Assembly (NCBI GenBank): GCA_018650285.1
Contig: JABIGF010000001.1
Coordinates: forward strand, 34,072-98,071
Direction of reading: 5' to 3'
From: Methanobacteriota archaeon
GTDB lineage: Archaea; Thermoplasmatota; Poseidoniia; Poseidoniales; Thalassarchaeaceae
DNA length: 64,000 nucleotides
Position 1 is the first letter of the stretch; each line of letters starts with the position of its first letter. Under the pieces are notes generated by a model. It was not told where the DNA came from. It was given only the letters and a program-made list of their open reading frames with translations, and searched no databases. Below are positions 2,391 through 52,318 of this stretch, in pieces. Position numbers and translations under genes: made by a program.

Positions 2391-3425
2391 TCAGGCTACG
2401 CCAGTTTCATTATCGAAATCGGTTACAATCTTCTTTTTGGTTGTGCTAGATTGTTTGTTTTTCAATCGGGCATTGACTCCACCTATGGATAGAAGAAAAA
2501 TTTCTTCAGCAATTGATTTCTTTGTCATTTTGACCTTTTTGAACTTTTCAAGGCCGCAGATAGTAATCATTGCAAGTAACATGCGGGGGTTTTCTTGAGC
2601 CATTGGTCCACAGTCTTGTTCATCACCCTCAAGTAACTTTAGTCGGTCAGAAACCCACTGGAGTAATTCATCTGCGCCAACGACATCATTCTTTCTAACG
2701 AACTCTCGTAGTCTTTGTTCAAAGGCATAAAGTTCGTTTTTTCTGGCTTCTTTCATACCAGAGCGGGGGTCGATTGGTGATTTCTGTGCTCGGTATAGTA
2801 AATATAGACGTCTTTTGATAAGGCCAACGGCTCTGTTAATGTCGTTCGGTTCAATGCCGAATCTTTTTGCATCTTGTTGCCAGAATTGGAATGGAATTTT
2901 GCCCATGTCAGACAGAACTCTGAGTGTGGCTAATGCGCACACTCTGATGATGTAGGTTGCATCTTTTTCTTCACCTAGAATGTATCTCATTTGATTGAGA
3001 GGCAGCATCCCATGGCCATCATTTTCACCATTCTTTGTATAACAGTGCTCAAGAATCTTGATTGCTCTTTCTCCTACCGATGATGAACCCGTGATATTTT
3101 TAATTTCACGCAATATCTCATTGCCGCGGATATTGCGTTTTGCATTGTTTCTTTGTTCAGTTCGGAGAAGGTTTCTCTTACCCATCTTGTAAGCTTCTTT
3201 TGCATCAATATAGGTGCGTCTGGTATCTTTGACACCGACAGAGTCATTTCGTGTAGCACTCATATGTGCCTCTTCTCCCACCTGGCCGCTAGGGTGTTCA
3301 GTATCCAACATCTTTTCTTCCAAGACAATACCACATTCGTTACAAACGATTTCACCAAGACTTTCATCATGTTCAACATCGTTGCTGTTACATTCATTAC
3401 ATTTACCACTTTTTTTATTGTTCAT
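2391..3425 (-). CDS. tfb: transcription initiation factor IIB (TFB)
   Basis: N-terminal Zn-ribbon CNECx13CNEC followed by cyclin-fold repeats. The length of 344 aa is typical for archaeal TFB. Confidence 0.8.
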   Translation of the reverse strand: MNNKKSGKCNECNSNDVEHDESLGEIVCNECGIVLEEKMLDTEHPSGQVGEEAHMSATRNDSVGVKDTRRTYIDAKEAYKMGKRNLLRTEQRNNAKRNIRGNEILREIKNITGSSSVGERAIKILEHCYTKNGENDGHGMLPLNQMRYILGEEKDATYIIRVCALATLRVLSDMGKIPFQFWQQDAKRFGIEPNDINRAVGLIKRRLYLLYRAQKSPIDPRSGMKEARKNELYAFEQRLREFVRKNDVVGADELLQWVSDRLKLLEGDEQDCGPMAQENPRMLLAMITICGLEKFKKVKMTKKSIAEEIFLLSIGGVNARLKNKQSSTTKKKIVTDFDNETGVA

Positions 3426-3915
3426 TTTATCGCTTCCTTTTGGTTAGTGACTACCGACTTTGAAAGTTCTTGTTCATTTGATTATCCGTTATGCCAATAA
3501 ACACCATTTTCGTTTTTGCATAGTTTTTATCGCTGTTCATATGACGGATAAACGTTGAATTACACTCTCCAAGCCGATTTCCACAGTCCGGACTCTGTGT
3601 GTGTCTACACCTTTATGAACCCTTGCACAAATGAACATGAATGCTTCTTGATTACAATTTCATTGAATCGCCGTTTTTTGTTTGATTGGTAATGCGGCGC
3701 ATTAATTGCCACCTCACCATTGTAGTCTGTGCCAAAGCCCTCTTACAATTCATGGTCCATAAAGTGTTTGTTTTGCCTCAATGCTAGTATCTATTCTTGG
3801 GGTTCATAAGGGAGGAGAGTAACGACCGTCAAGGAGTCAGGCGGGGATATCGGTTAATCCTTGAATAAGTGTCGTTTTCCAATATGTAAGGTAGAGGTGA
3901 AGATGAGTGGATAAT

Positions 3916-6900
3916 ATGGTAAAGCAACCTTCTTTGACGATGGAGGAAATCCCACCAGGTTACAGTCCTGGATGGTTGCTGAGCCATTTTTTGCATCAAT
4001 CACAAGATCCAAGGTCATTGAATCAGGGTGGTCCATCACAACTTTTGATAATTCATTCAACTGAGGCTTCTAGGAGGGCTACACTAAATCAATTGGCAGG
4101 AGATGCTGATATCGATGGGCCGGTTGATAGAACGAGCCACCATACATTGGATAGTTTAGTAGCATCTCTTCATGCAGAGTTAAGACAACCTCGATTGCTG
4201 CCTGCTAGTGGCCCATTTTCTATTCTACTACACGCGGAATGTAAGAAGGCGGCTCAACGATTAGAGTTCCCATTAATGCATAGTTTACCAGACCACTACT
4301 GGGGGAAAGGCAAAACTCGCGATTTAACTAATTTAAGTAAATCATTGAGAGAAGAGGATGTTGATACCGATTTTTCACCAGATTTGCAATCTTTTCACCG
4401 AATTATCAAAGGAGTGAGTAACCAATTAAATGGCATTCATCCTGATGAACAAATGAAATCATTGGTTAGCATACTTGAGCAGTTGCAATCGGAGGATATT
4501 CCGTTTGGGTTATCTAGCATAGATGGTATTCTCATGCTCGATCATCCACCGACACTTTCGCCACTGCGGCAAAGATTAGTAAATTCATTAGTGAGATTTA
4601 GGCCATTACATATTCTAGCAAATTTTGGAAGTTATCGGCTCGGAGTCCATGGTTTTGTTGCTAATGATATTGCGGCAATTCGTGATGAAGCCTCCCTCCC
4701 CAAATGGATTCCACCACATTCACCTTTTACAGTTGAACAACTAAACAGTTACCAAGAATCGGTAAAGCAACCAATTCGCATGTTAGTTCCTAGAATTGAA
4801 AGGTCAATCGAATCCACCCATGCTCTAATTGACGCGGCATTAGGTTTTGATTCCCCACCAAATTCAATTATGATTATTGACCCATCTGTTGATTCAAATT
4901 ATGAATTATGGTCTTCAATGTTGGATTCTTTTGGGTTTCATTTACCAACACTTTCTGCACCGCTCAAAGAAAGTCCCGGGGTTCATTGGCTCAGCGCGAT
5001 AGTTTCCCTTTCTCATTTTGAAGATGCTTGGTCCCTCCCTCAATTACGAGCGATAGCAATTCAAGGTACACTTCAATTCAACTCTGATTGGTTAATTGGT
5101 GAGCAACACCCAACGCTTGCAGATTTGCGACCAATACCTGATGTTGATGTTCTTGAGGAGGTTTCAAGAGGATTCCATTTACTAGGTGGTCAAGGCGCTC
5201 TATTTCGCTGGTTACATTCATTGGCAAGAAAGCCGATAGCAAATGCATATCAGGATGAAGAAGACCTTTGCCGCCGCCATGAAGCAACTCAATGGTGGCT
5301 TCTCAGTTTAGCGAATAGGCTCAAGCCATTGTTGTCTACAATGGATGCTAGTGTGCTAGAAGATAACATGGTAGCAATTGGATGCTATACAGGGGAGCAA
5401 TTGCCATTACCGCCTGCGGCAAATACAGGTGATGAATGGTTATATCAGTTTGGTGAAATGCTTCAATGGCATTTGTTGACAGCTAAACTTGATGGGCAAA
5501 TGAACCAAACGATTGGTGGCTTGCAACAATTATTCGAATCTCACTTATCATTGCGAACATCACAGCGTCTATTATCTCAGAAGTCGCCCATAAGAGGTAT
5601 GGATTGGGTTGATGAAATTCTCACATTAATTGATTCAACAACTCTAGAAGGAACTAAGATCGCAGATTCTAAATTAAGGCTATTAACTCCAACTGATGCG
5701 TTGGGTTGTCATGCCGATTTAGTGATAATTACAAATTTAGATTCAGAATCTTGGAACACATCTCCAGCATCTATCCCTGGGTTATCTGAGGCTGTTAGAA
5801 CAGAGATAGCAGTATTATCTCCCGATGATAATTTACGTACAGCCCGACACTCTTGGATGCATCTTCTGAATAGTGGTAAAGAGGTGATAATTTTAGATGC
5901 TGATGAAGATGAGTCATCCCAACCTTCAACTCCTCTATCTGAATGGCTAGCATCTGCAATATGGGACCCAATGTCTTCTCCAATAATTCCTAGTTTCATC
6001 AGCCCAGATGAGGTTTTTCGTATAGATGGCGACCATAAATCAAGGTGGGGTTTGTCTTTTCTAAAAAGAGGTAATTTTCCTGTAGCTAGGCCATCAGATG
6101 TAGTCATTGACAATGGTAGTTTTGAGTTGATAGTGACAGGCAGCCATCAACGTGACCAAAGACAGCGTGCTGGAATAGATATGCAACAAGCTAGAAACCC
6201 AATGCAGGGTGCTCTCAATCCAGCAGCCGTTACAATAGCCCTTGATTCATCCCTTATGGAAGATAGGCTCTCTAGACAGCCTAGAATTGGAAGTGAAGAA
6301 ACACCTTATTTGCCAAATTCACTTCACGGAGAAGTTTTGTCTGTTGATGATTTGAAAATCACTCCTGGTTCTACCATGGGTAAAGGAATTTTACCTCGAA
6401 ATTATCCCGCTTGGCCAACAATTGGACTCAAAGTAGGTTCTAGTAAAACTATGACGATAGATCCAAGGCCATTAGTTCCAAACGCAACAGCAATCAAAGA
6501 TTATGACCGTAGGCATGGGTTTGAAGATGGGCCGTCTTCGAAAACAAATATTTGGTCCCCTAGTCGCCTTACACAGTGGCTCTCTTGCCCGCGTAAGGGT
6601 TGGTTACAAAATCGGTTAAGGGCCGAAAGTGAAGATGATGAAGACGATGACGTTGATGTAAGGACTAGAGGTCTTCTCATCCATGAAGTATGGGCGGATT
6701 TCATCTGTGAATTTCTTGAAATGGAGGTTGGTAAAGAGAGAGAAAACCTCGTACCAGCATCATTGGCAACTGCAAATATTGATGAACACATATTACGTCA
6801 AAGATTGCTACAAATTATTGATGAAAAAGCACCTTGGTTACGCCGTTCAGATGCAATTGCAACCGTTAGAAGGTTGGATTTAGTTGGATTAAATTGTGAG

Positions 6901-7698
6901 ATTTATGAAGCAGCTTTGGATGAAGGTGGTGAAATTACAACAGCGGGAAGATTTGGCCGATTACTTGAATCAGAATTGAAACCCAACGCAGGTGCGTTAT
7001 TGGCTGTGGAATGGCCATTAACATCAAAGGAGAGTAAGGGTGTTTTAGTTTCGTTACCTGAAACTGGTGAAGATGTGCTTAAAGGAATCAAATTACGGGG
7101 CACAATTGACCGCGTTGAATTAGTCCCTGTTTTAGATTCATGCTATGTCAACAAAGAAGGCCTTGACGAAGAGTGCCCACTTGACCTAGACTTAGGAGAA
7201 GAATGGCCGGCGCAAAGATTAGTCATTATTCGTGACCTTAAGTCATTAGAGGGGCCAGTTCGCAAAAAGGCTGGCGAGAGGCACAAAAGAGAATTGTTTG
7301 CAGGAGTGCAATTAGCGCTCTACGCCCGTGCTTGGGAAGTAACTCACAAAGGTGATCGCGTGATAGGGGTTGGCATCTCTGAGGTTGGTGAGGAAAGCGG
7401 CCATTACATAGAAGCAGACCCGGAATATTTCGCCCATCTTACTTCATTGAATATCGGGAAAGTTGAATGTAACACTGCTCCACTATTCCGTCGCCCTGGT
7501 GAAGATGGAGAATCACCTCAAAGTAACCCATTCAGGGCATGGATGCGTCATCGTTTGACAGCAGCTTTGCAAATTGGAGAAATGTCTGATAATGGTAATG
7601 TGATTCCAACCCCTAGTGGTATTTCTTGCACCTATTGTTCCGTAAAACAAGCTTGTAATTTAGCACCAACTGTTGGAGGTGATAAAAAATGGACTTGA
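3916..7698 (+). CDS. AddB-like subunit of a helicase-nuclease: an inactivated SF1 helicase-like N-terminal region plus a C-terminal RecB-family PD-(D/E)XK nuclease with a Cx2Cx5C Fe-S-type cysteine cluster
   Basis: C-terminal nuclease motifs GTIDRVELV, IIRDLKS and Q-x-x-x-Y (VQLALY). The terminal CTYCSVKQAC has the same Cx2Cx5C spacing as the AddB/Cas4 Fe-S ligands. No intact Walker A is present: a degenerate P-loop-like LLIIHSTEASRRATL sits near the N-terminus. The gene overlaps the downstream helicase gene by 10 nt (ATGGACTTGA). The ORF track starts at 3907 (GTG); the first ATG is at 3916. Confidence 0.6.
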   Translation: MVKQPSLTMEEIPPGYSPGWLLSHFLHQSQDPRSLNQGGPSQLLIIHSTEASRRATLNQLAGDADIDGPVDRTSHHTLDSLVASLHAELRQPRLLPASGPFSILLHAECKKAAQRLEFPLMHSLPDHYWGKGKTRDLTNLSKSLREEDVDTDFSPDLQSFHRIIKGVSNQLNGIHPDEQMKSLVSILEQLQSEDIPFGLSSIDGILMLDHPPTLSPLRQRLVNSLVRFRPLHILANFGSYRLGVHGFVANDIAAIRDEASLPKWIPPHSPFTVEQLNSYQESVKQPIRMLVPRIERSIESTHALIDAALGFDSPPNSIMIIDPSVDSNYELWSSMLDSFGFHLPTLSAPLKESPGVHWLSAIVSLSHFEDAWSLPQLRAIAIQGTLQFNSDWLIGEQHPTLADLRPIPDVDVLEEVSRGFHLLGGQGALFRWLHSLARKPIANAYQDEEDLCRRHEATQWWLLSLANRLKPLLSTMDASVLEDNMVAIGCYTGEQLPLPPAANTGDEWLYQFGEMLQWHLLTAKLDGQMNQTIGGLQQLFESHLSLRTSQRLLSQKSPIRGMDWVDEILTLIDSTTLEGTKIADSKLRLLTPTDALGCHADLVIITNLDSESWNTSPASIPGLSEAVRTEIAVLSPDDNLRTARHSWMHLLNSGKEVIILDADEDESSQPSTPLSEWLASAIWDPMSSPIIPSFISPDEVFRIDGDHKSRWGLSFLKRGNFPVARPSDVVIDNGSFELIVTGSHQRDQRQRAGIDMQQARNPMQGALNPAAVTIALDSSLMEDRLSRQPRIGSEETPYLPNSLHGEVLSVDDLKITPGSTMGKGILPRNYPAWPTIGLKVGSSKTMTIDPRPLVPNATAIKDYDRRHGFEDGPSSKTNIWSPSRLTQWLSCPRKGWLQNRLRAESEDDEDDDVDVRTRGLLIHEVWADFICEFLEMEVGKERENLVPASLATANIDEHILRQRLLQIIDEKAPWLRRSDAIATVRRLDLVGLNCEIYEAALDEGGEITTAGRFGRLLESELKPNAGALLAVEWPLTSKESKGVLVSLPETGEDVLKGIKLRGTIDRVELVPVLDSCYVNKEGLDEECPLDLDLGEEWPAQRLVIIRDLKSLEGPVRKKAGERHKRELFAGVQLALYARAWEVTHKGDRVIGVGISEVGEESGHYIEADPEYFAHLTSLNIGKVECNTAPLFRRPGEDGESPQSNPFRAWMRHRLTAALQIGEMSDNGNVIPTPSGISCTYCSVKQACNLAPTVGGDKKWT

Positions 7699-10600
7699 AT
7701 AGAGGGCAGACCTTAGGTCTGAATTTAGATATGCACATTGTTCTTGATGCAGGCGCAGGAACAGGAAAGACTGCATGTATTGTTCAAAGAGTGCTCGAAC
7801 ATTATCTTTCAGAGGATCAACGGGCAACGAGATTGTTACCACCGGGTCCAAGAGAGGTTGATTTTGGAGGAGGTTTCCTACAAACTCCAGCAAAGGATAG
7901 AGAAAATCTTCGTCAATGGCGTGGATTATTACCAACTGAAGTTGTTGTTCTAACATTTACTGTCAAGGCTGCTGATGAAATGCGAGACCGGATGCGTAGT
8001 GAACTTGCCCGTTTGAGAGCAGGCCCGCGTGGCGTTAGGAATGGGCTACGTTATGACCCTAGAATTCGTAATGAAGGTTTGATTGAACAGTTGACAATGT
8101 TGCTTGATGAAGCACCTATTGGCACCATTGATTCATTTTTGAATCGGTTGGTGTCATCATACCGAAGTTTGCTTGGCGACCGCCCAACACATGAACAGAT
8201 GTCTGATGCTCAAAGGGCACTCCTGATGGAACGTGCATTGAGTTCGTTATGGCGAATACGTAGTGAAAAACACGCTGGCGATTTGCGAATTATGTCAGTT
8301 TCTCCGGCAGATTTCCTTGCTGCAAGAAATCGGCTTTCACATCAATTAGGGGGGCGTTCTAGAACTCAAAAAATAGTTTCCCAACTTCTTCATAATTCAA
8401 TATTTGTTGATACCGTTAGACGTTCTTTAGAATCTCATTCAGGCCGAGTTGATGCAGAAGCCATTAGAGCAAGTTTTCTCTCACATTTGAGAGCAGATGA
8501 AATTCATGATTTTGCTTTGGAGTTATTTTCAATTTGTGATGATTGGCTCAATGCTGCAAAACAGCGTTCTGAGGAACTTGGTTTGCCTGCAGCGTTACTA
8601 AGTGATACACGTGTAAATGCCTTGGATACACTTGTTGATAATGGAATACCTGATGATTTGTGGGACAAGTTATTGTGGGTATATCATGCAACTTTAGCAA
8701 TATGTAGTAAATCATCAATTGAAAATATTGTTCCCTCTTCTTTCCCACGGGGTCTATTGCCAAATACCGATGGTTGGGCTTCAGGGGTGCAAAAACTCAG
8801 TTCAATCAAAGACAAGGATGTACGGGCTGCAGTAAAAGAGGCGATGGAAGATAGTCAAAATCGTTCAAAGATACTTTTTGGCACTATAAGGGGCATGAGA
8901 ATTAGGTCATGTGCAATGATTTCTAATCTTCTTGACCCACGATTAGGGCCACCATGCTGCCCTACTGATTCGGCAGTACATGTAGTTCGTTTATCTGACC
9001 CATTCCCATCATATATTGATGATGAACCAGTTTCTCTTGAAGCTGAGACAGATGCACGAATTATTGCTGATTTACTTATTGTTCACAAGGCCGCTGAAGA
9101 TGTACTAACTGAATTGAGATTGCAAGAGGGACTTCATGATCATTCAGACGTAACTCAGGCTGCTGAAGATTTGTTGCTTGCGCGGTGCCCTCGAATTTGT
9201 ACTCGTTGGTATCCGCCTGACATCACAGCAGCATTGAATGCAATTGATGATGAACAACCTTGGAGAGATGAACATATTCACGCGGCAATTTCATTGTGTG
9301 GAAACCCAGATGATGGTGAAATTGCTAGACACCATGTTGACTACCCAATGAAATTAGTCAAAGAGGACTTAGAGAGAAGGTATGTGATTTTGAAAACGCT
9401 CAGAAGAAGATTTAGGGCTTTCATTATTGATGAGGCACAAGATAATTCCAATCAACAATGGCGTTTACTCTCTCGTTTGTGGGGTGAGAGAGAAGAGAAA
9501 GAAGGTGACCCCGAGCCACCAAACTCTCCGTGGCAACCGACTGTATGTTGGGTCGGTGACCAAAAACAGAGTATCTATGGGTTTAGACAAGCACAAGTCA
9601 GTGGAATGGCAAGATATACTGTTCATTTGCGGGCTATTAACGAACATGAATATGCAAGTGAACCTCGTCTATTACTGAAGCCTGCATTGCGGCGCCGAGA
9701 TGCAGCACGTGACCCACGATTGTTGGAAATAAAGAACTTCATTACTGGATTAGATTATGTGAATCATCGACCAATTCCAGAAGAGGCTTGGGTAGAATTT
9801 GACCGAGGAGATGATGATAGAAGATTGGACCAATCAGATGTGATTAGGCGCACTCAGGGGCATGTCGATTTGGTGACAAATTATCGTACTTGTAATGATT
9901 TATTGCAAACTATGAACGAGTGGTGGGTTGACCTTTTTGACCCACGCCACCACCTATTCCCTGGCGATTGGTACGCTTATGCAAAGGGCCTTAGAGCACA
10001 TCGAATAGAAGAATCAGGCCAATTAGAATGGTTGTTACCTATCGCAACTGGTGAAACGAGTAATCCGCCATCAGATTTGACTATTCCACTTGATCCGTTC
10101 TCTCTTGGTTCAGCAGCAAAGCAAGTTCATCTTGAACACGAGTTAGTAGCCACTAGAATTCGTTCATTAATTGATGGTGTCCCAGCATCGGTTCTTTCCA
10201 GTGAATTGGAATCAACTATCGTCCCTTCGTCTGATAACATTGAACCTCGTGATATCATGATATTGATGCCATCAAGAACTCATATGCAAGATTTGATTCG
10301 TCGTCTTGATGACCTTGGTATTCCGGCATTAGCCGACCAAGAAGGCGGTCTTCTTGAGCAACCTATTGTAATGGCACTTTCTGCATTATTACAACTAACA
10401 GCAAGACGTTTTGATGTTAGCCGCGCAGCTACTTTGACAAGAACTCCATTAGTTGGATTCAATGATATTGAATTGGAGAAATATATTGCAGATAAAGACG
10501 GCCCCCAAGATTTGTTAGAAAGGTTACAAGACCATGCAATAAGTAAGCCACAGAGAGAATTATTTTGCCGTTGGAAGCAACTTGCAGACTGCAATAGAAT

Positions 10601-12671
10601 TCTCAAAATGCTAGAAGAAACATTAGATTATTCTGATTTACTTCTTGCATATCCTAATCAAGTTGACCGACAGTATGCTGAGCAATTTTTGGCATTAATT
10701 AGGTCCCAAATGGCAGAAGCAGGCGGCGATGTAGTTCTACTTGCAGAGAGAATAAAACGCCTTTCATCAGTGAATGGAAAATTGCTTCCAGGAGAAGCGA
10801 TGCCGCCTTCAAATGCAGTAAGAGTGATGACGATTCATGCTTCAAAAGGTCTGCAATCAAAAGTAGTCGTTGTATGTGGTCTATTTTCAGAAAATCAGAG
10901 TAACCTTGGCCAATCTCTTCGTTCAAACATATTAGTATCTCAACAGATGTTTTCTCCACGAGCGAAACCTTGGAAGAGTAGAGATGCAATTGATAGTGGA
11001 AGTTGGAGGCTATCTACTGAAGTATTGACGTCACAAGTCCAAGCGGAGGCTCGTCGTTTGTTCTATGTTGCTTGTACTAGAGTCAAAGATAAATTGATAC
11101 TTGCGGGGGCTCCTAAGAATTGCAAAATCAACTCTACTTTGGGCGAGATTGAAATCCCTTGGAAATATAAGCCCACACCGCGATTTGGTTGGATGTGGTT
11201 AGAAGCAATTCGCCAGGCTGCTCGAAGAGATGGCCTATTGGAAGCGCCTTGGTTGATTGGAGATGACAGCGATTTGCCAGCACCACTTCCTTTCCGTTCA
11301 AAAGGTACCTTGACCATCTTACCAAATCAAATGATGACTAACCCATCTCTTGCTCCTGGGTTGTTGAATAGTTTGTCTATTTTCCACCATCCAGATTATA
11401 TTCTTCCTTCTCGTGAAATCACCTCACCTTTAGTAAAGTACACCCGTCTACAAGGGAGTGCGAGATTGCCAATTGTCAATGATACAGAATCTCTTTCACT
11501 ACGAAAAGCAAGTCGTAAAATTCGTATTGCTCCTCACATGTTAGATTCGGCGAATAGTTGCATACGTCGACATTGGTTAAAGCAATATGTTGGGATATCA
11601 AGTGAAGCAATTAATCTTCCATTAATCCAACAAAATGAGGGTGAAAATTCTGAAGGAGATTTTGATGAGCCAATTGGTCCAGCAGCGAATGTTCTGGGTT
11701 CACTTTTCCACCGACTTGTTGAACTTGGTATACCAAATCCCGGTGTTGAAAATGGTAAAGCATCAACTCCACTTTCAAGTCAATGGTTTACTCCAACACC
11801 TAACCGTATGTTAGACCAGTCTCTAATTTTCCAAGTGCTGGACGAATTATTGCCTGCAACAGTAGATAGAGATATTACAGCAAAAATGCTACAACGAATG
11901 GCTGAAATATTCATTGAAGGCAAACTTGGTAAACTTGTGAAAGGTGATGCAATTGAAGGCCTTCATGTAGAGGCATTGAGAACCGAATGGCCATTCTTAA
12001 TCAATATCAAGAAGCCCCTTTCAAGCACCTATTCAACTCGTTGGACACCCCAAAAGCAAGAGATTGTAGAAGAGATAGAATCTCTAACATTTGAGTTAGA
12101 TGGTATTGCCGATTTGGTGTTGTGTCAAACCGATGGTAAGTCAAGAAATACGATAAGAGCAATTGACCTAAAAACGACGGGAGCAATGTCTATTCTGAAT
12201 CCTCCTCAGAAGACAGAAGGTACAATTTACGAAATCCCATCAAATCCTGATGATGAAATAATTAGAACAGATGCAGAAGTCGAATTATTGAATCATTATC
12301 GAATCCAACTCTATCTTTACCATCTTTGTCTTGTTAGGCAAGAGAGAATGAGGGCTGAGAGTGGAATCGGTGAAAGAGAAGTTCTACGGCCAGCGATCCT
12401 AGTTGCTACAACTGGCCGATTGATATCTTGGACAGAAGAAGAATTTGCTGTAATTGAAGAAGAATTCAATCAATTAATCAAACAACTGGCAGAAGTGGAG
12501 ATTGAACTTCGTGGTGATGAATCTAATTTCCCAAGAATGCCGATTGAAAACAAAGATATTTGTGATAAATGTCCATATTTCCAAGGAAACATCAAGTTAT
12601 GTGCTCCTCAAGGTATAGCACTTGGAATGGCTCAACAGGGCGAATCTGAAGAAAATGGATTTAAGATTTGA
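7689..12671 (+). CDS. AddA/RecB-like UvrD-family SF1 helicase with a C-terminal RecB-family nuclease domain (1660 aa)
   Basis: SF1 helicase motifs are present: Walker A AGAGTGKT, Ia TFTVKAADEMRDRM, II FIIDEAQD, III VGDQKQSIYGFRQA, IV NYRT, V VMTIHASKGLQSKVVVV and VI RRLFYVACTRVKDKLILAG. The C-terminal nuclease carries the motifs GIADLVLCQTDG, IRAIDLKTTG and Q-x-x-x-Y (IQLYLYH), followed by a terminal CDKCx9C. Confidence 0.8.
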   Translation: MDLNRGQTLGLNLDMHIVLDAGAGTGKTACIVQRVLEHYLSEDQRATRLLPPGPREVDFGGGFLQTPAKDRENLRQWRGLLPTEVVVLTFTVKAADEMRDRMRSELARLRAGPRGVRNGLRYDPRIRNEGLIEQLTMLLDEAPIGTIDSFLNRLVSSYRSLLGDRPTHEQMSDAQRALLMERALSSLWRIRSEKHAGDLRIMSVSPADFLAARNRLSHQLGGRSRTQKIVSQLLHNSIFVDTVRRSLESHSGRVDAEAIRASFLSHLRADEIHDFALELFSICDDWLNAAKQRSEELGLPAALLSDTRVNALDTLVDNGIPDDLWDKLLWVYHATLAICSKSSIENIVPSSFPRGLLPNTDGWASGVQKLSSIKDKDVRAAVKEAMEDSQNRSKILFGTIRGMRIRSCAMISNLLDPRLGPPCCPTDSAVHVVRLSDPFPSYIDDEPVSLEAETDARIIADLLIVHKAAEDVLTELRLQEGLHDHSDVTQAAEDLLLARCPRICTRWYPPDITAALNAIDDEQPWRDEHIHAAISLCGNPDDGEIARHHVDYPMKLVKEDLERRYVILKTLRRRFRAFIIDEAQDNSNQQWRLLSRLWGEREEKEGDPEPPNSPWQPTVCWVGDQKQSIYGFRQAQVSGMARYTVHLRAINEHEYASEPRLLLKPALRRRDAARDPRLLEIKNFITGLDYVNHRPIPEEAWVEFDRGDDDRRLDQSDVIRRTQGHVDLVTNYRTCNDLLQTMNEWWVDLFDPRHHLFPGDWYAYAKGLRAHRIEESGQLEWLLPIATGETSNPPSDLTIPLDPFSLGSAAKQVHLEHELVATRIRSLIDGVPASVLSSELESTIVPSSDNIEPRDIMILMPSRTHMQDLIRRLDDLGIPALADQEGGLLEQPIVMALSALLQLTARRFDVSRAATLTRTPLVGFNDIELEKYIADKDGPQDLLERLQDHAISKPQRELFCRWKQLADCNRILKMLEETLDYSDLLLAYPNQVDRQYAEQFLALIRSQMAEAGGDVVLLAERIKRLSSVNGKLLPGEAMPPSNAVRVMTIHASKGLQSKVVVVCGLFSENQSNLGQSLRSNILVSQQMFSPRAKPWKSRDAIDSGSWRLSTEVLTSQVQAEARRLFYVACTRVKDKLILAGAPKNCKINSTLGEIEIPWKYKPTPRFGWMWLEAIRQAARRDGLLEAPWLIGDDSDLPAPLPFRSKGTLTILPNQMMTNPSLAPGLLNSLSIFHHPDYILPSREITSPLVKYTRLQGSARLPIVNDTESLSLRKASRKIRIAPHMLDSANSCIRRHWLKQYVGISSEAINLPLIQQNEGENSEGDFDEPIGPAANVLGSLFHRLVELGIPNPGVENGKASTPLSSQWFTPTPNRMLDQSLIFQVLDELLPATVDRDITAKMLQRMAEIFIEGKLGKLVKGDAIEGLHVEALRTEWPFLINIKKPLSSTYSTRWTPQKQEIVEEIESLTFELDGIADLVLCQTDGKSRNTIRAIDLKTTGAMSILNPPQKTEGTIYEIPSNPDDEIIRTDAEVELLNHYRIQLYLYHLCLVRQERMRAESGIGEREVLRPAILVATTGRLISWTEEEFAVIEEEFNQLIKQLAEVEIELRGDESNFPRMPIENKDICDKCPYFQGNIKLCAPQGIALGMAQQGESEENGFKI

Positions 12672-12708
12672 CCGGAGATTCAATGTCTAATACCCTTTGG
12701 CGGAAGGT

Positions 12709-14133
12709 ATGACAGCAACCGATGCGATTGATTGGCAGAGCATGGCAGAATTTACAGAATCGTATTGGGAGAACTCAGCGCTTCCAAGTCTTTCAGAATA
12801 CATCAAGATTCCAGCCCTATCTCCAGCATTTGATGTTGAATGGGAAAACAATGGCCACCTAGACGCAACAATTGACCATTTTCTTGGCTGGCTTGCTACT
12901 ATTGAAATCAAAGGATTAACAGCCTCAGTTCACAAAATTGTGGGCAGAACTCCACTACTTCTTCTCAAAGTTGAAGGCAGTGGAAAAGGAAATGTTCTAT
13001 TTTATTCACATCTCGACAAACAGCCAGAATTTACAGGTTGGGACGAAGGAAAGGGGCCTTGGCTTCCTGTTAGAGAAGACCCATGGTTGTATGGCCGAGG
13101 TTCGGTTGACGACGGGTATGGGGGATATTGCAGCCTCATTTCTCTCATGGCACTACAGGCCCAAGGAATCGCACATCCTTCTTGCACATTCATTCTTGAG
13201 ACATGTGAAGAGAGTGGTTCACCTGACCTTCCATTCTATCTTGAAGAGCTGACCGATGAACTAGGGATTCCTGATATGGTTGTCGTACTTGATTCTGGTT
13301 TGGGCGATTATGAACGCGTTTGGGTTACCGAAAGTTTGCGTGGTTTAGTAGGTGGAACATTGACAGTTGCGGTAACTTCTGAAGGTGTCCATTCTGGTAT
13401 GTCAAGTGGAATAATCCCATCATCATTTAGAATTGCACGGCAGATACTTTCCCGCCTTGAAGATGAGAACACTGGTGAAATATTACCTGATTGGTTGCAC
13501 ATTGATATCACTGATCAATTGCGTGCAGATTCAGCAGCGATTGTTGAGGTTTTGGGCGATGCTCTCATCACAGATTTCCCCTTCTTGGAAGGTGTCCAAT
13601 CGCAGCACGAAGACCTTGTTGAAGCATTGTTGGCTCAAAATTGGAGGCCGACACTATCTATCACTGGGGCTGATGGAATACCTGCGATTGCGAATGCGGG
13701 AAATGTTCTTCGAACACATACAACTTTGAAATTAAGTGTTCGAATTCCCCCAGGTGTTGATGCAGAATCGGCCTCTGAAAAATTGCAAGATTTGTTGCAA
13801 TCAAATCCACCACTTGGAGCGCATGTAACTTTCAAGCCTGAAGCGGCTGCTAACGGATTTGCAGCACCACCAATGCCAGCAAACATTGATGCTGCTTTTG
13901 ATGAAGCAAGTAAGAAGACATTCGGTGCAGGTTCAATGCCATTTTACGAAGGCGGAACCATTCCATTCCTTGCGATGATGCAGGAATCATATCCAAAAGC
14001 GTCCTTTTTGGTTACAGGTTGTGCGGGCCCAGGGAACAATGCACATGGTCCGAATGAAAAATTGCATATTCCAACTTTAAAGTCATTAACTCAATGCGTA
14101 GCAGCCGCTTTAGCATCAATGTCTTATGGGTGA
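12709..14133 (+). CDS. M20 family metallopeptidase (CNDP/PepV-like dipeptidase)
   Basis: Metal-binding motifs HLDKQP and LYGRGSVDDGYG are typical of M20 dipeptidases. The ORF track starts at 12697 (TTG); the first ATG is at 12709. Confidence 0.6.
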   Translation: MTATDAIDWQSMAEFTESYWENSALPSLSEYIKIPALSPAFDVEWENNGHLDATIDHFLGWLATIEIKGLTASVHKIVGRTPLLLLKVEGSGKGNVLFYSHLDKQPEFTGWDEGKGPWLPVREDPWLYGRGSVDDGYGGYCSLISLMALQAQGIAHPSCTFILETCEESGSPDLPFYLEELTDELGIPDMVVVLDSGLGDYERVWVTESLRGLVGGTLTVAVTSEGVHSGMSSGIIPSSFRIARQILSRLEDENTGEILPDWLHIDITDQLRADSAAIVEVLGDALITDFPFLEGVQSQHEDLVEALLAQNWRPTLSITGADGIPAIANAGNVLRTHTTLKLSVRIPPGVDAESASEKLQDLLQSNPPLGAHVTFKPEAAANGFAAPPMPANIDAAFDEASKKTFGAGSMPFYEGGTIPFLAMMQESYPKASFLVTGCAGPGNNAHGPNEKLHIPTLKSLTQCVAAALASMSYG

Positions 14134-30510: not shown

Positions 30511-30670
30511 ATGGCTAGCCTCACTAAAGCCGCCTTAACCTTGACGATGGCAATGGGAGGCTTGGAGCGGGTTATCGCACCCATCCGCAATAGCCGAAAA
30601 GGAGAATCTCCTCCCTTAGGGAGGACAAATAGCCCGAAGTTCAAAGTGCAAGGGGTTGTCTGTCGGGCTG

Positions 30671-33600
30671 ATGAAGTACAAGCCAATGTTGTTAGTGATT
30701 ATTTTTTTAACCGCTTCTTTGCAGGTTTTTGCAGCACCTGAAAGCGTGCTTGAAGAAGAATCACCTATTGCTAGTACTAGTGCTAGTCAATGGGAAATGG
30801 CAGATGGGCCAGAAATACAATCGGGATGGTCTCCAAATGTATGGCAACCAGATTCAAAAAGTGCATTTTGGGAGATGGATTTTAGCCCTGATGGCAGCAA
30901 ATTAGCGGCTGTTGAAATATCTGATAACCGCCTTTTTGTTTGGAATGTTGACGACGGAAGAGTTCTATTGTGGATACACCATGATGCGGCAATTGTCGAT
31001 GTAGTTTGGCTATCAAACGAGTGGGTGCTTGTAGCAGATGGAGGAATCAATTGGTATTCATATCAAGTGATGGACAATGGTACATCATCCCCTCAATCCT
31101 CTACATTGATGCGCTCTGGACAATGGACTGATTCACTTACTGGAACTTATCCAGGGTGGTTATGGGGTTTAGACGCTTCTGTAAACAACTCAAAAGTAGC
31201 ATTTTGTGGAGATATTGACCAGATGAATATGGGTGGCGAAGTGGTTGTTGCTAACCTAAATCACTTCATTGACGGCTCGCCGGCAAATGCCCAACACTTT
31301 TTCCCACAATATTGGGTTACTGATTGTGCAATTTCTCCCAATGGTGGCACGGTAGCTGCCTTGGGTCGAAATGTGACCTACTACCCTGATGGGAATGTCA
31401 CTTATCGTGATGTAGTCTATGGTGTTGAAGTAGCAACTGGTGCTCTCTCTTGGAGTCGTTTTGTAGGCGGCGACAATTCTTCAGCATGGGCTGTTACTTG
31501 GGAGCCTGGTGGTGGCAGTTACACTGTTGGATATAATCACCCAAAACCAAGCCAACCATCTGTTTGGGAAGGTGTTGTTACGGCTTTTGCAGAGGTCGAT
31601 GGGTCAATTTTTTGGTATTCAACAATTCCTCAGAATTTGAGTAGTATACGTTGGTTACCAGATGGCTCATATCTAGGGGTTGGATTGTATGACCCCGGTA
31701 GAATATCATTCATCAATACAGCGGGCCAGATTCAAACAGATTTTGGTTGGCATTCGGTTCGTTCAGGTTCAACAACAATTCCAGAAGATGTTACCGCTGT
31801 TGCAACAACTACTATTCCAGCAACAACAACAGCAAACCAATTGATGGCATCGGCAGGAAAAGATGGTGGAATTGAGATTTGGAATATTGATGTTTCAACT
31901 TTTGAAATAGTCCCATATCGAAGATTTGGGCCCTCTATAATGAGAGAAATTGCAGTTCACCCTAACCAAGATTTAGTAGCGATTGCTGAATCATCAGGTG
32001 TTCTAACAGTTCGCTCAGGAATCAATGGTTCAATTGTTTCACAATGTTTCCACCCTGAATTTGGTCAGTTAGTCTATGAGATTCCATTTGCAAAATCTGT
32101 CGAATGGATGAATGGTGAAGCGGTAGCTGGATTTAGTGATGGAGTAATATTTTCATGCAACGAATTTAATAAATTCTCTTGGACTTTTGATTTAAGAAAT
32201 TTTCAGACAGTTGGCTCTTTCGGTAGAGTTGCAGTCCAACCCAACAGCAATCACATTGCAATTTCTTGGTCGTCAAATACAACGAATAACACACGTGATG
32301 GACATGTGGCAATTATTGACCCTATGTCGGGCCAATTTTTCAAAGAGTGGCAATATGCCGAAACTCATTGGACATTAGATTTCAATGACTTTGGTACAAA
32401 ATTAGCTTCAGTTGGTCAATCTGGTGGGGTCAGATTATGGAATACTAGCGATCCGAACCCAGCAAATTGGATAGACGATGGCTCACCATATTCTCACACC
32501 GGCTATGTTGGCGTTACACAATGGATGCCTGGTGCAGATTTATTGGTCACAGCCGGCTGGGACAAACAACTCATTTTTTGGGATGTTCAATCACAAATGT
32601 CGATGATGCAATTAACATTGCAATACGAAGCATTTGCTTTTGCTGACTTGATGGCTCAAGGACTTGCAGTTGTTGCAACCGGAGATTCATCAACATCTCA
32701 AGTTGGTCAATTAGAGTTTTATGATATTCAAAATAGTACTCTTGACTCAACATATCAACTGAATCATATTCCTCGTGGATTGGGTGTTCTTCCCATTGAA
32801 CAATCTTTGGTTGTGGTGAACCATACTGGTACTCTTCTAATCCTCAAGAAGGATGCGGATGGAGATGGCTGGGCGGATGATGTAGACGCCCTCCCCAATG
32901 ACCCTACTCAACATTTGGATAACGATGGGGATGGATGGGGTGATGACCAGACTCAAGTTACAGGAGATGCTTGCATCTCAATTCAAGGCACTAGTCATGA
33001 AGATAGAAATGGCTGCCCTGATAGCGATGGAGATGGTTACAGCGATGCTGATGCAACTTGGCTCGCTCACCCTGTAGGAAATGCAGATGCCTTCCCGAGC
33101 AACCCCTCACAATGGCGAGATAGTGATGGTGATGGATATGGTGATATCTATTCATATTCTGTTGACGCACAAGGCCTTCGCACAGGTGAAGTAGGAGATG
33201 CATTCGCTAATGATGGTGCACAATATCGTGATTTAGATGGTGATGGTTGTGGTGACAATTATTCTTACGGCGATGATAACGGAATGAGAATTAATGAAGC
33301 CGGTGATGCATTTATTTCAGATCCTACTCAGTGCAACGATTTTGATGGTGATGGATATGGTGATAATTACACCTATGTGAATAATTTTAATGGATTGCGT
33401 GAAGAGAATGGCGACGCATTTCCAACAGATTATCTTGCTTGGTCAGATGTTGATGGTGATGGTTGTCCAACAAATTCTGCTACCGGATTAACGATTGACC
33501 TTTATCCAACAGATGGCCAATATTGTGATGAAGATTTACCATTTTGGTTGCCTATTAATTTACAGACAGTAATTACCAACGGCGTAAATCTTTGGAATAT

Positions 33601-34333: not shown

Positions 34334-34354
34334 CCAACGTAGATTGAGGGCAAA

Positions 34355-35140
34355 TCAGCGGCTTGATTGAGAATATTCATGGTAATCAACTACTGGTTGA
34401 AGTGAATCGATAGCAGTTTGAAGGCGAGCATTAGCGGCTTGTTCGCCGCTTTCAATTGCAGCGATTTGCTTTTGGAGAGATTGCAGGCGTTCATTCAAAC
34501 TACTTGCTATTGCGTGATTCAATCCTGATGTTGGTTGAATCCATCTTTGGATACATGTTACAATTTTGTCAACCGAAGTTGTCATACCATTATTAGAAAT
34601 GAGAATGAATTCATTATTTTCTCTGTTCACAGGGCCGACTTTAGTCAACGCTGCAACCAATTTTTTGGCAACCTTTCCGGCCTTTTTCAGTGAACCTTTG
34701 CAGACTTCATATGCTTCAATAGATAGGACATGTGCTTCAACGTGGCCTTGTTTTGCTGGCATTGAAAAATTGTTGAGAGCCTTTTTCAAGTTTCCAAGTT
34801 GAATATGTATGCGGCCTATTTGCATACAATCTTCAATGATAATTTTTGCATCTGCATCATTGCCAACAACCTTTTCTTTTACTTTCATTTTTCGAAGGGT
34901 TGAGGATTCAGTTCCTAATTTTTTGGCGGCCTTTAAACTCAATTTCCATTTATTCCGAATTTCAAGAATGTTGGCATAGTCACGAAGTGCGAGTACTAGG
35001 ATTTCTTGGCGTTGTAGCGTCCTTTTCTTTTCTGAAAGAAGCATTGTAGTCAATTCATCAACCATGTGTTCAGCAATTTCAAGGCGGCCGTCGGTGACAT
35101 AATTGCGCAATTGATTGAGCACCTTTACGGGGTCGTCCAT
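34355..35140 (-). CDS. hypothetical alpha-helical protein
   Basis: ORF of 261 aa. No recognisable motifs. Confidence 0.25.
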   Translation of the reverse strand: MDDPVKVLNQLRNYVTDGRLEIAEHMVDELTTMLLSEKKRTLQRQEILVLALRDYANILEIRNKWKLSLKAAKKLGTESSTLRKMKVKEKVVGNDADAKIIIEDCMQIGRIHIQLGNLKKALNNFSMPAKQGHVEAHVLSIEAYEVCKGSLKKAGKVAKKLVAALTKVGPVNRENNEFILISNNGMTTSVDKIVTCIQRWIQPTSGLNHAIASSLNERLQSLQKQIAAIESGEQAANARLQTAIDSLQPVVDYHEYSQSSR

Positions 35141-35264
35141 GCCAAACAGTGTCCCACCTCATCATGTGAGAGAGGGGCATCACGCATTACCGCTCCTATT
35201 GTTCGTCTCTCTCTTCAAGGTATGCAAGCAGCAATTTAATCAACAAACAAAGAGTAGTAAAAAA

Positions 35265-38387: not shown

Positions 38388-38519
38388 CTGATTACAGCGC
38401 ACGCTCAATGCCTCCGTAGGGGTTGGTGGTAATGAAGCGGTTATGAGGCTGACGCAGAATGAGTGGCTAATGCGTCAAATCTGGGCGATAATAATTATCA
38501 TCATCGCCTTTATCGCCCC

Positions 38520-45557: not shown

Positions 45558-45701
45558 TTTGTTTTGATTCTTTGCTAATCAAAATAAGTTCAAGATTATT
45601 CTATACTTGATTTTTATTCATCGGATGGATTCTTGAAGGGAGAGCGAGTCGGAGGTTTGCAATCGGCCGGTTTCCCCGTTCGGTGGCATTGGGGCCGTCC
45701 C

Positions 45702-47174: not shown

Positions 47175-47183
47175 ATCTGAATA

Positions 47184-47507: not shown

Positions 47508-47508
47508 T

Positions 47509-50757: not shown

Positions 50758-50944
50758 GTTCTCTTCCTCAAACCGCTTGGGCGGGGGTCCCCGTTTTCAA
50801 TCAACGCCTCTATTGATTTCCGATAATTCTTGAATAGTGTTATTTCTATGAATGGGTAAATCTGAATTGGCATAATGTATTCATCAAAATGTTGTTTTTT
50901 TGCTCTATTCAGTGGATAAAAAACATTGGAAGAATCCGACGCGC

Positions 50945-50952
50945 TTAATTAG
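50945..50952 (+). promoter_or_regulatory. TATA-like box (CTTAATTA) upstream of rpl21e
   Basis: AT-rich octamer about 50 nt upstream of the rpl21e ATG, followed by GGAGG at 8 nt from the ATG. Confidence 0.35.
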
Positions 50953-51001
50953 GGGCGGTAGGTCGCCGAGTTCCCCATAGGGGAACAATGGAGGCATAGC
51001 A

Positions 51002-51292: not shown

Positions 51293-51293
51293 G

Positions 51294-52311: not shown

Positions 52312-52318
52312 TGGAAAC

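What the first reader, a model, noticed from the sequence alone, without database searches (positions are those of the whole stretch)
3916..12671. Bacterial-type AddB-like/AddA-like helicase-nuclease pair in an archaeal context
Two overlapping genes (a 10-nt ATGGACTTGA overlap, consistent with translational coupling) encode 1263-aa and 1660-aa proteins. The second has all seven UvrD/RecB SF1 helicase motifs plus a C-terminal RecB-family nuclease domain. The first has a RecB-family nuclease domain with a Cx2Cx5C cluster and no active P-loop, which is the AddB/RecC-type arrangement. End-resection in archaea is normally carried out by HerA-NurA-Mre11-Rad50, so an AddAB/AdnAB-type machine embedded among core archaeal genes (TFB upstream, an M20 peptidase downstream) is unexpected. 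It could be a horizontally acquired recombination/repair system, or an anti-phage DNA-degrading module.
Basis: partly seen in the sequence, partly recalled or inferred. Interest (0 to 1): 0.75.

Follow-up and report, generated by a model that had tools for sequence, protein, structure and literature searches.

The report
AddAB-type DNA-end processing enzyme in marine archaea
Two overlapping genes in this Marine Group II (Poseidoniales) archaeal genome encode a very divergent version of the bacterial AddAB machine that chews back broken DNA ends, and the pair is inherited throughout this abundant ocean lineage, which goes against the common statement that archaea lack such enzymes.

Summary
ORF1 (3916-7698, 1260 aa) and ORF2 (7689-12671, 1660 aa) overlap by ATGGACTTGA, and a GGAGGTGA ribosome-binding site lies 6 nt before the ORF2 start.

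ORF2 is an SF1A helicase. Every motif is invariant in 120 relatives, and its closest family and closest solved structure are AddA. Its C-terminal PD-(D/E)XK nuclease carries four cysteines.

The window is archaeal (Poseidoniales). At least 197 species genomes encode an ORF1 relative. In 79 of 81 fetched loci the ORF2 homologue follows directly, in conserved housekeeping synteny. Composition is unremarkable.

So this is an anciently fixed, vertically inherited one-motor, two-nuclease AddAB-type enzyme. It is not a recent transfer or a defence island.

It differs from canonical AddAB in three ways: both nucleases have four-cysteine (probable Fe-S) sites, the AddB-like subunit has lost the nucleotide site, and neither protein reaches the curated AddA/AddB thresholds.

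Archaeal addAB was reported in 2009, so this is a new variant, not a new kind.

The parts
3894..3900 (+). Shine-Dalgarno-like GAGGTGA upstream of ORF1. It lies 6 nt before GTG 3907 and 15 nt before ATG 3916, so the true start could be either.
   Evidence: Read directly from the sequence. Database homologues are called from the ATG.
3916..7698 (+). ORF1, the AddB-like subunit (1260 aa from ATG 3916; 1263 aa from GTG 3907).
3916..6213 (+). ORF1 residues 1-766: an inactivated SF1 helicase-like scaffold with no Walker A. Inferred to be the channel that scans the 3' strand.
6214..6555 (+). ORF1 residues 767-880: a linker predicted to be disordered in isolation, yet holding invariant residues (D783, R784, R787, R828, W833, P834, D849, R851, P852, L853). 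Inferred to be an inter-subunit or DNA contact.
   Evidence: pLDDT below 50. Invariant columns.
6556..7695 (+). ORF1 residues 881-1260: a PD-(D/E)XK (RecB/Cas4-type) nuclease with four cysteine ligands. C891 is at nt 6586-6588, C1238 at 7627-7629, C1241 at 7636-7638 and C1247 at 7654-7656. Catalytic D1065 is at 7108-7110, D1107 at 7234-7236 and K1109 at 7240-7242.
   Evidence: Pfam PDDEXK_1 7.9e-13. Weak Cas4 hits. All listed residues are invariant in 31 of 31.
7675..7682 (+). GGAGGTGA Shine-Dalgarno sequence for ORF2, inside the 3' end of ORF1.
   Evidence: conserved in relatives.
7689..7698 (+). 10-nt overlap ATGGACTTGA (ORF2 start to ORF1 stop). Consistent with translational coupling.
   Evidence: The same overlap occurs in 26 of 41 parsed relatives and a 1-nt overlap in 11.
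7689..12671 (+). ORF2, the AddA-like motor-nuclease subunit (1660 aa).
7689..11123 (+). ORF2 residues 1-1145: SF1A UvrD/AddA-type helicase core. Walker A is at nt 7749-7772, motif II DEAQD at 9429-9443 and motif III at 9552-9590. A large insertion lies between motifs Ib and II (about aa 150-560).
   Evidence: Pfam UvrD-helicase 1.5e-30, UvrD_C and AAA_19. addA_Gpos 1.7e-40. PDB: AddA 3u44_A is best for the single sequence and for the profile, 127 bits. Motifs are invariant in 120 sequences.
11526..12623 (+). ORF2 residues about 1280-1645: a PD-(D/E)XK nuclease with a four-cysteine cluster. C1291 is at nt 11559-11561, C1625 at 12561-12563, C1628 at 12570-12572 and C1638 at 12600-12602. The catalytic residues are H1341, D1475, D1493, K1495, Q1540 and Y1544.
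2391..3425 (-). Divergently transcribed TFB-like gene (context only, not part of the system).
   Evidence: Pfam TFIIB Zn-ribbon 1.2e-07. Upstream only in the closer relatives.
12697..14133 (+). M20 peptidase gene 25 nt downstream. Its position is conserved after the pair in most relatives, and co-transcription is possible. No functional link is shown.
   Evidence: Pfam Peptidase_M20 and M20_dimer. Synteny.

Best explanation
ORF1 and ORF2 encode the two subunits of an AddAB-type (one motor, two nucleases) helicase-nuclease. It is a core, vertically inherited gene pair of Marine Group II archaea (Poseidoniales).

Inferred mechanism, by analogy with B. subtilis AddAB:
1. The heterodimer binds a double-stranded DNA end.
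2. The ORF2 SF1A motor hydrolyses ATP and translocates 3' to 5' on the 3'-terminated strand, unwinding the duplex.
3. That strand is fed through the dead helicase-like scaffold of ORF1, which is the place where AddB and RecC read Chi. It then reaches the ORF2 nuclease.
4. The displaced 5' strand is cut by the ORF1 nuclease, whose four-cysteine (Fe-S) subdomain sits at the fork.
5. The product is a 3' single-stranded tail for the archaeal recombinase. The same activity would also destroy linear foreign DNA.

Shown here: both reading frames are intact and coupled. The domain architecture, conservation of every catalytic and ligand residue, AddA-closest sequence, AddB-closest fold, archaeal host and order-wide synteny are all established.

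For: - Overlap and SD.
- ORF2 helicase: all SF1A motifs are invariant in 120 relatives.
- ORF2 family placement: NCBIfam ranks AddA above RecB, and both above PcrA and UvrD. PDB best hit is AddA for the single sequence, and for the family profile it is 127 bits against 72 or less for PcrA, AdnB, UvrD and RecB.
- ORF2 motif III: it reads KQSIYGFR, the K-Q form seen in the AddA alignment.
- ORF1 C-terminal domain: Pfam PDDEXK_1, with invariant catalytic residues and C...Cx2Cx5C.
- Gene order: the AddB-like gene precedes the AddA-like gene.
- Linkage: the pair is adjacent in 79 of 81 loci, and the other two are cut by a contig end.
- Distribution: 197 GTDB species genomes have an ORF1 relative, and the 78 loci returned carry Poseidoniales, MGII or generic archaeal names, apart from one SAG labelled Deltaproteobacteria.
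- Synteny: the same housekeeping neighbours surround the pair at 31-37% protein identity.
- Composition: no anomaly.
Against: - Scores are far below the curated equivalog cut-offs: addA_Gpos 138.8 against 707.65, and addB_alphas 22.9 against 486.5.
- The ORF1 helicase-like region has no detectable sequence similarity to any solved AddB, RecC or AdnA. The AddB assignment therefore rests on a predicted structure with 9-11% identity.
- ORF1 lacks the Walker A site that B. subtilis AddB keeps and that stabilises its Chi complex (PMC3321194).
- The window's own ORF2 nuclease domain gets no Pfam or PDB sequence hit.
- There are no biochemical data. No Chi-like word could be identified in 64 kb.
- Whether these archaea also carry HerA-NurA and Mre11-Rad50 was not testable here.
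Confidence: 0.8

Rival explanations
1. A dedicated anti-virus or anti-plasmid defence module: a helicase-nuclease whose main job is to degrade invading linear DNA, not to repair the chromosome.
For: ORF2 hits the UvrD-like GajB profiles of Gabija in PADLOC (best 3e-18). Bacterial RecBCD and AddAB do degrade foreign linear DNA (established knowledge). Cas4-like nuclease signatures are present.
Against: The GajB hits are generic UvrD-helicase matches and are much weaker than AddA. No GajA or other defence partner is present. The neighbours are housekeeping genes: TFB, M20 peptidase, radical SAM, a YGR210 GTPase, ribosomal P0/L1, FtsZ and Spt5. The locus keeps the same position in relatives down to 31% identity and occurs in at least 197 species. 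That is the opposite of the patchy, island-borne pattern of defence systems. Composition is native.
Confidence: 0.08
2. An AdnAB-type or RecBC(D)-type machine instead of an AddAB-type one. Either ORF1 is a second ATP-binding motor-like subunit (as in AdnA), or it is a nuclease-dead RecC-like scaffold working with a RecD encoded elsewhere.
For: RecC and AdnA are the second and third best structural matches of ORF1. Like RecC, ORF1 has no nucleotide-binding motif (PMC3321194). AdnB is a close second to AddA in the single-sequence PDB search.
Confidence: 0.07
3. Two independently acting proteins that merely sit side by side: a stand-alone UvrD-Cas4-like fusion helicase of the kind described in mesophilic archaea, plus an unrelated large Cas4-like nuclease.
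For: The Cas4 phylogenomics paper describes UvrD-like helicase/Cas4-like nuclease fusions in 'many bacteria and mesophilic archaea', mostly stand-alone (PMC5704561). By sequence alone ORF1 is only a PD-(D/E)XK protein.
Against: Linkage is strict in 79 of 81 loci, with overlapping stop and start codons and an internal SD. ORF1 carries a 766-residue AddB/RecC-type dead-helicase scaffold, and the top structural matches are all partners of a motor subunit. ORF1 has invariant residues in a linker that is disordered on its own, as expected for an interface.
Confidence: 0.05

Closest known systems
AddAB (RexAB) helicase-nuclease of Bacillus subtilis and other bacteria (PDB 3U44, 4CEH)
   Same: - Two adjacent genes, with the AddB-like gene first.
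- One active SF1A 3'-5' motor subunit with a C-terminal RecB-family nuclease.
- A partner made of an inactivated helicase scaffold plus an active nuclease with a C...Cx2Cx5C site.
- AddA is the best sequence match of ORF2, and AddB is the best fold match of ORF1.
   Different: - Sequence identity is only about 9-11% for ORF1, and both proteins are far below the equivalog cut-offs.
- ORF1 lacks the Walker A site that B. subtilis AddB retains (PMC3321194).
- The ORF2 nuclease also has a four-cysteine cluster, and its fold is closest to Dna2 and AdnA, not to AddA. To my knowledge AddA has no such cluster.
- ORF2 is about 430 residues longer than AddA, with a large insertion between motifs Ib and II.
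- The host is an archaeon whose recombinase would be RadA, not RecA.
RecBCD (E. coli exonuclease V; PDB 1W36)
   Different: RecC's C-terminal domain is not an active nuclease, whereas ORF1's is intact with a Cys cluster. No RecD second motor is encoded nearby. RecB scores lower than AddA in the family-profile search against PDB.
AdnAB of mycobacteria (PDB 6PPJ, 9NP6)
   Same: It is a heterodimer in which both subunits have nuclease domains. The Fe-S cluster subdomain of the non-motor subunit AdnA sits at the fork (PMC13000450). AdnA is the third-best fold match of ORF1 and the second-best of the ORF2 nuclease.
   Different: AdnA keeps Walker A and B and binds nucleotide, and ORF1 does not. The AdnB motif III pawl is Trp, whereas ORF2 has the AddA/RecB-like KQSIYGF form with an invariant Phe.
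UvrD-like helicase/Cas4-like nuclease fusions of bacteria and mesophilic archaea (pfam12705 branch, PMC5704561), and the eukaryotic/bacterial Dna2 nuclease
   Different: Those fusions are described as mostly stand-alone. ORF2 is strictly paired with an AddB-like partner. Dna2 has the nuclease N-terminal to an SF1B motor.
HerA-NurA with Mre11-Rad50 (the canonical archaeal end-resection system)
   Same: The presumed cellular task is the same: making 3' tails at DNA ends.
   Different: The proteins and architecture are unrelated (a hexameric FtsK-like ATPase plus a NurA dimer). None of them is encoded in this window. Whether they are present elsewhere in the genome was not testable.

Membership tests
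AddAB-type helicase-nuclease (architecture-level class) | The motor subunit is an SF1A UvrD-like helicase with the full motif set (Q, I, Ia, II, III, IV, V, VI). | tested here: met
   Pfam UvrD-helicase, UvrD_C and AAA_19. Motifs are invariant in 120 relatives.
AddAB-type helicase-nuclease (architecture-level class) | The motor subunit carries a C-terminal RecB-family PD-(D/E)XK nuclease with intact catalytic residues. | tested here: met
AddAB-type helicase-nuclease (architecture-level class) | The second subunit has an N-terminal inactivated helicase-like scaffold (AddB/RecC type). | tested here: met
AddAB-type helicase-nuclease (architecture-level class) | The second subunit has an active C-terminal nuclease with the four-cysteine (4Fe-4S) 'iron staple', C...Cx2Cx5C. 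| tested here: met
   Pfam PDDEXK_1 7.9e-13. C891, C1238, C1241, C1247 and the catalytic residues are invariant in 31 of 31. Metal occupancy was not testable.
AddAB-type helicase-nuclease (architecture-level class) | The two genes are adjacent and co-oriented (operon), with addB before addA. | tested here: met
   10-nt overlap plus SD. Adjacent in 79 of 81 loci. Junctions are conserved.
AddAB-type helicase-nuclease (architecture-level class) | Stable heterodimer, ATP-dependent unwinding and degradation from dsDNA ends, and regulation by a Chi sequence. | not testable with these tools
   No multimer prediction or biochemistry was available. An exploratory search for skewed words in 64 kb was uninformative.
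AddA equivalogs (NCBIfam TIGR02785 addA_Gpos, TIGR02784 addA_alphas) | Whole-protein score at or above the curated cut-off (707.65 and 860.75 bits). | tested here: not met
   138.8 and 116.2 bits. These are the best families hit, but at only about one fifth and one seventh of their cut-offs.
AddB equivalogs (NCBIfam TIGR02786 addB_alphas; related TIGR03623) | Whole-protein score at or above the curated cut-off (486.5 and 299.6 bits). | tested here: not met
   22.9 and 24.5 bits, covering only aa 506-674. No PDB AddB hit by sequence or by profile.
B. subtilis-type AddB | A retained Walker A (motif I) nucleotide-binding site in the dead helicase domain. | tested here: not met
   No [AG]x4GK[ST] in 30 of 31 family members. 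The single hit lies in a non-homologous insertion. The feature is described in PMC3321194.
RecBCD | A RecC partner with a degenerate (inactive) nuclease-like C-terminal domain, and a third subunit, RecD (an SF1B motor). | tested here: not met
   The ORF1 nuclease is intact. No RecD-like gene is in the window. The rest of the genome was not searched.
AdnAB | The non-motor subunit AdnA retains Walker A and B and binds nucleotide. | tested here: not met
   The feature is described in PMC3321194 and PMC13000450.
Gabija (GajA-GajB) defence system | A GajB UvrD-like helicase paired with a GajA ATPase-TOPRIM nuclease. | tested here: not met
   Only generic GajB helicase hits, 3e-18 or weaker. ORF1 hits no GajA model.

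The most novel reading that the evidence does not exclude
Poseidoniales, among the most abundant planktonic archaea, process DNA ends with a lineage-specific AddAB derivative in which both nucleases carry iron-sulfur clusters. Its dead-helicase subunit reads an as-yet-unknown archaeal Chi-like sequence and hands the 3' tail to RadA. This would be the first Chi-regulated recombination pathway in Archaea, possibly replacing HerA-NurA in this order.
Probability: 0.3. Interest if true: 0.8.

Novelty: new variant of a known kind. Interest (0 to 1): 0.55.

Why it matters
Recent work still states that RecBCD and AddAB 'are not present in archaea' and that Chi sites have not been identified in archaeal genomes (bioRxiv 10.64898/2026.05.08.723854). 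An older survey had already noted archaeal addAB genes (Cromie 2009, as cited in PMC2887965).

Here an entire, ecologically dominant archaeal order carries an intact, strongly conserved AddAB-type pair as a core gene. That raises several testable questions:

- How does a bacterial-type resection machine cooperate with the archaeal RadA recombinase and with archaeal replication?
- Does an archaeal Chi exist?
- Did this machine displace HerA-NurA?
- Does it feed CRISPR adaptation, or restrict the viruses of these uncultured archaea?

The AddB-like subunit is annotated only as 'hypothetical' or 'PD-(D/E)XK nuclease family', because it cannot be recognised by sequence. Genome surveys based on HMMs would therefore miss the system.

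The double four-cysteine architecture and the redistribution of cysteine ligands between sub-clades are also natural material for studying what Fe-S clusters do in these nucleases.

Tried and rejected
1. Sequence searches of ORF1 against solved structures. The single sequence and the 28-sequence profile gave only a marginal Cas4 hit. The AddB relationship is visible only through the predicted fold.
2. Exhaustive phmmer of ORF1 aa 1-1200 against 1.84 billion representatives. It returned only 171 hits, all from the same family or fragments of it. No bacterial outgroup was reached, so no donor could be proposed.
3. A phylogeny against bacterial AddA, RecB and AdnB. This was not possible because no reference sequence sets were available. 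I used HMM and PDB score ranking instead.
4. A census of herA, nurA, mre11 and rad50 in the same genome. This was not possible. Only 64 kb plus +/-10 kb loci can be read, none of these genes is in the window, and no paper links MGII with them.
5. A Chi-like motif search using strand-skewed 5-8-mers in the window. The best were GACAG (59:17) and GCGAG (58:18). These are confounded by gene orientation and codon use in only 64 kb, so I treat them as uninformative.
6. A PDB sequence search with the ORF2 nuclease domain alone found nothing.
7. The recent-HGT idea. I rejected it. GC is 0.424 and 0.417 against 0.439+/-0.022 for the window's genes, GC3 is within about 1.6 SD, and codon distance is like that of other long genes. 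Synteny is order-wide.
8. The bacterial-contig idea. I rejected it.
9. A search of the AlphaFold database for other-taxon homologues of the ORF1 fold. The library was unavailable.
10. Cromie 2009 could not be read. Its content is quoted only through a citing paper and my own recollection.
Full report
**Observation.** The window holds two long co-directional reading frames. ORF1 runs from 3907 (GTG) or 3916 (ATG) to 7698, and ORF2 from 7689 to 12671. The sequence 7689-7698 is ATGGACTTGA, so the ORF2 start overlaps the ORF1 stop by 10 nt. A perfect GGAGGTGA lies at 7675-7682, 6 nt before the ORF2 ATG. The finding's '1263 aa' belongs to the GTG start, and its coordinate 3916 gives 1260 aa. This is a trivial discrepancy. 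My script could parse 41 junctions in related loci. Of these, 26 have the same 10-nt overlap and 11 have a 1-nt overlap, nearly always behind a GGAGG-type SD.

**ORF2.** Pfam finds UvrD-helicase (1.5e-30), UvrD_C and AAA_19. NCBIfam ranks addA_Gpos (1.7e-40, 138.8 bits), addA_alphas (1.6e-33) and recB (3.9e-30) well ahead of PcrA, UvrD and Rep. All are far below the equivalog cut-offs of 707, 861 and 696 bits. Among solved structures the best single-sequence match is B. subtilis AddA (3u44_A, 1.6e-11), followed by AdnB. With a 33-sequence family profile the ranking becomes clear: AddA 127 bits (4e-36), PcrA 72, AdnB 70, UvrD 68 and RecB 58.

In an alignment of 120 full-length relatives the following motifs are invariant:
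- Q7
- Walker A AGAGTGKT (21-28)
- LTFT (88-91)
- TIDS (146-149)
- DEAQD (581-585)
- VGDQKQSIYGFRQ (622-634)
- NYRT (731-734)
- MTIHASKGL (1047-1055)
- EARRLFYVACTR (1120-1131)

Motif III has the KQSIY.FR form that also appears in the AddA alignment. AdnB, by contrast, uses a Trp pawl (PMC13000450).

C1291, C1625 and C1628 are invariant, and C1638 is present in 84 of 120 (pattern Cx2Cx9C). In 25 sequences that lack C1638 a cysteine appears at 1294, giving CxxC ... CxC. The remaining 11 have other four-Cys layouts such as CxCxxC. Keeping the number of ligands while moving them argues that a metal cluster is functionally required.

**ORF1.** By sequence only the C-terminal PD-(D/E)XK domain is visible (Pfam 7.9e-13). 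There are also faint hits to addB_alphas and TIGR03623 over aa 506-674, and to Cas4. C891, C1238, C1241 and C1247 (Cx2Cx5C) are invariant in 31 of 31 relatives, as are H923, D1065, D1107, K1109, Q1132 and Y1136. Neither the sequence nor a 28-member profile finds AddB, RecC or AdnA in the PDB.

An AlphaFold model of aa 1-880 built on that alignment is confident (pLDDT 80.9, pTM 0.75), apart from aa 767-880, which are predicted to be disordered.
- Foldseek independently puts five AddB chains on top (E 1.5e-15 to 6.6e-14, TM 0.49).

These three proteins are exactly the non-motor, strand-scanning subunits of the three bacterial end-resection machines. ORF1 has no Walker A pattern in 30 of 31 family members. 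B. subtilis AddB retains that motif, RecC has none, and AdnA keeps both Walker A and B (PMC3321194).

ORF1 is therefore an AddB-type protein, a dead helicase plus an active Fe-S-type nuclease, whose nucleotide site has decayed as far as in RecC.

**Host and inheritance.** The neighbours are archaeal housekeeping genes: a TFIIB Zn-ribbon protein, ribosomal P0 with the L10P insertion domain, L1, Spt5-NGN, FtsZ, a YGR210-type GTPase, archaeal Pus10, DUF655 and KsgA. ORF2 has more than 200 full-length relatives at 36-75% identity, and the named ones are Thalassarchaeaceae, Poseidoniaceae or 'Euryarchaeota'.

An exhaustive HMMER pass of ORF1 over 1.84 billion representative proteins finds only 171 hits. 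All are family members or fragments. Even the most divergent one (27% identity) is from Poseidoniales.

A scan of one genome per GTDB species finds 197 genomes with an ORF1 relative. The 78 loci returned carry Poseidoniales, MGII, Thalassarchaeaceae, Poseidoniaceae or generic archaeal names. The one exception is a SAG labelled Deltaproteobacteria, whose contig also carries the archaeal TFB.

In 79 of 81 loci the ORF2 homologue follows ORF1 directly, and the other two end at a contig edge. An M20 peptidase follows in most. At 31-37% identity the same neighbourhood persists (M20 peptidase, hexapeptide transferase, radical SAM, GTPase, ribosomal P1/P0/L1; MCM nearby) on 1.5-Mb and 3.0-Mb contigs.

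GC (0.424 and 0.417 against 0.439+/-0.022), GC3 and codon usage are unremarkable. The pair is thus a vertically inherited core trait of the order. Any transfer from bacteria must predate the split of MGIIa and MGIIb.

**Mechanism (inferred).** The architecture is one active SF1A motor, two intact nucleases and one dead-helicase scaffold. This is the AddAB solution, not the RecBCD one (one nuclease, two motors) or the AdnAB one (two nucleotide-binding motor domains). By analogy with the AddAB-DNA structures (PMC3321194) and with AdnAB (PMC13000450), the sequence of events would be:
1. ORF2 pulls the 3' strand.
2. ORF2 passes it through the ORF1 scaffold, the locus of Chi recognition in AddB and RecC, and on to the ORF2 nuclease.
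3. The 5' strand is cut by the ORF1 nuclease, whose Cys-cluster subdomain sits at the fork.

Complex formation, Fe-S occupancy, strand assignment, Chi-like control and the in-vivo role are all inferences.

**Rivals.**
- A pure defence role is disfavoured by the fixed housekeeping synteny and near-universal presence. The PADLOC hits are generic GajB helicase matches without a GajA partner.
- AdnAB- or RecBC-type membership fails on defined features: Walker motifs for AdnA, and an inactive nuclease plus RecD for RecBCD.
- 'Two unrelated neighbours' is contradicted by strict linkage, the coupled junction and the nature of the ORF1 fold.

[quoted passage not shown] An earlier survey (Cromie 2009, not held; cited in PMC2887965) proposed transfer of addAB 'even into the archaea'. 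The Cas4 phylogenomics study noted UvrD/Cas4-like fusions in mesophilic archaea. I found no paper connecting Marine Group II or Poseidoniales with AddAB, RecB or end resection. Database names for ORF1 are 'hypothetical' or 'PD-(D/E)XK nuclease family protein'.

**Verdict.** It is not a categorically new system. It is a strongly diverged, lineage-wide archaeal variant of AddAB with three distinctive traits:
- Cys clusters on both nucleases;
- an AddB-like subunit without a nucleotide site, recognisable only by fold;
- a much enlarged motor subunit.

I rate interest as moderate (0.55). It corrects a common generalisation and makes an 'archaeal Chi' and AddAB-RadA cooperation testable. However, the kind of machine and its occasional presence in archaea were already known, and the function is inferred only.

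**Not resolved.** The donor lineage, the co-existence with HerA-NurA and Mre11-Rad50, and any Chi sequence remain open.

Noticed in passing
ORF2 family; window 11559-11570 (C1291/R1294) and 12561-12602 (C1625, C1628, C1638): The four cysteine ligands of the AddA-like nuclease are redistributed between sub-clades. 84 of 120 have C...Cx2Cx9C, 25 of 120 have CxxC...CxC (C1638 lost, C1294 gained), and 11 of 120 have other four-Cys layouts such as CxCxxC at the extreme C-terminus. The number of ligands is kept, but their positions are not.
   Followed up: partly
window 6214-6555 (ORF1 aa 767-880): This segment is predicted to be disordered (pLDDT below 50), yet it contains ten invariant residues (D783, R784, R787, R828, W833, P834, D849, R851, P852, L853). 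It probably folds only against ORF2 or DNA.
   Followed up: no
window 12697-14133: An M20 peptidase gene lies 25 nt downstream of ORF2. It keeps this position in most relatives, including those at 31-37% identity. There is no obvious functional link to DNA processing, so it may simply be co-transcribed.
   Followed up: partly
window 45633-57687: Pus10 (45633-47174), DUF655 (51721-52311) and KsgA (52319-53269) lie on the + strand, and corA (56686-57687) lies on the - strand. PMC10877094 describes this conserved Poseidoniales cluster with corA at its tail, and its title attributes the emergence of brackish Poseidoniaceae to a gene inversion. Here corA is on the opposite strand to the cluster.
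   Followed up: no
L067 (JAOMAZ010000031.1): A single-cell assembly labelled 'Deltaproteobacteria bacterium AH-558-G13' carries the full archaeal arrangement of TFB, AddB-like, AddA-like and M20 genes. The record is probably mislabelled or contaminated with Poseidoniales DNA.
   Followed up: partly
window 30656-38408 and 47509-50757: Three very large genes are present: a 1225-aa WD40/beta-propeller protein (30656-34333, +), a 1047-aa protein with only a marginal DUF4625 hit (35265-38408, -), and a 1082-aa MMPL/sterol-sensing-domain transporter (47509-50757, -).
   Followed up: no
window 62268-63383: An N6/N4 DNA methyltransferase gene (62268-63311, +; Pfam 1e-50) ends exactly where a convergent tRNA-Thr(CGT) gene lies (63311-63383, -). 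No restriction partner was seen among the ORFs scanned.
   Followed up: no
window 41409-42401: A Ca2+-dependent phosphoinositide-specific phospholipase C homologue (PI-PLC-C1, 2.1e-66) is an unusual enzyme to find in an archaeon.
   Followed up: no
whole window: The 5-mers GACAG (59 on + against 17 on -) and GCGAG (58 against 18) are the most strand-skewed words. Cumulative GC skew rises across most of the window, with a dip between about 22 and 30 kb. There is too little sequence to tell a Chi-like signal from codon and gene-orientation effects.
   Followed up: partly
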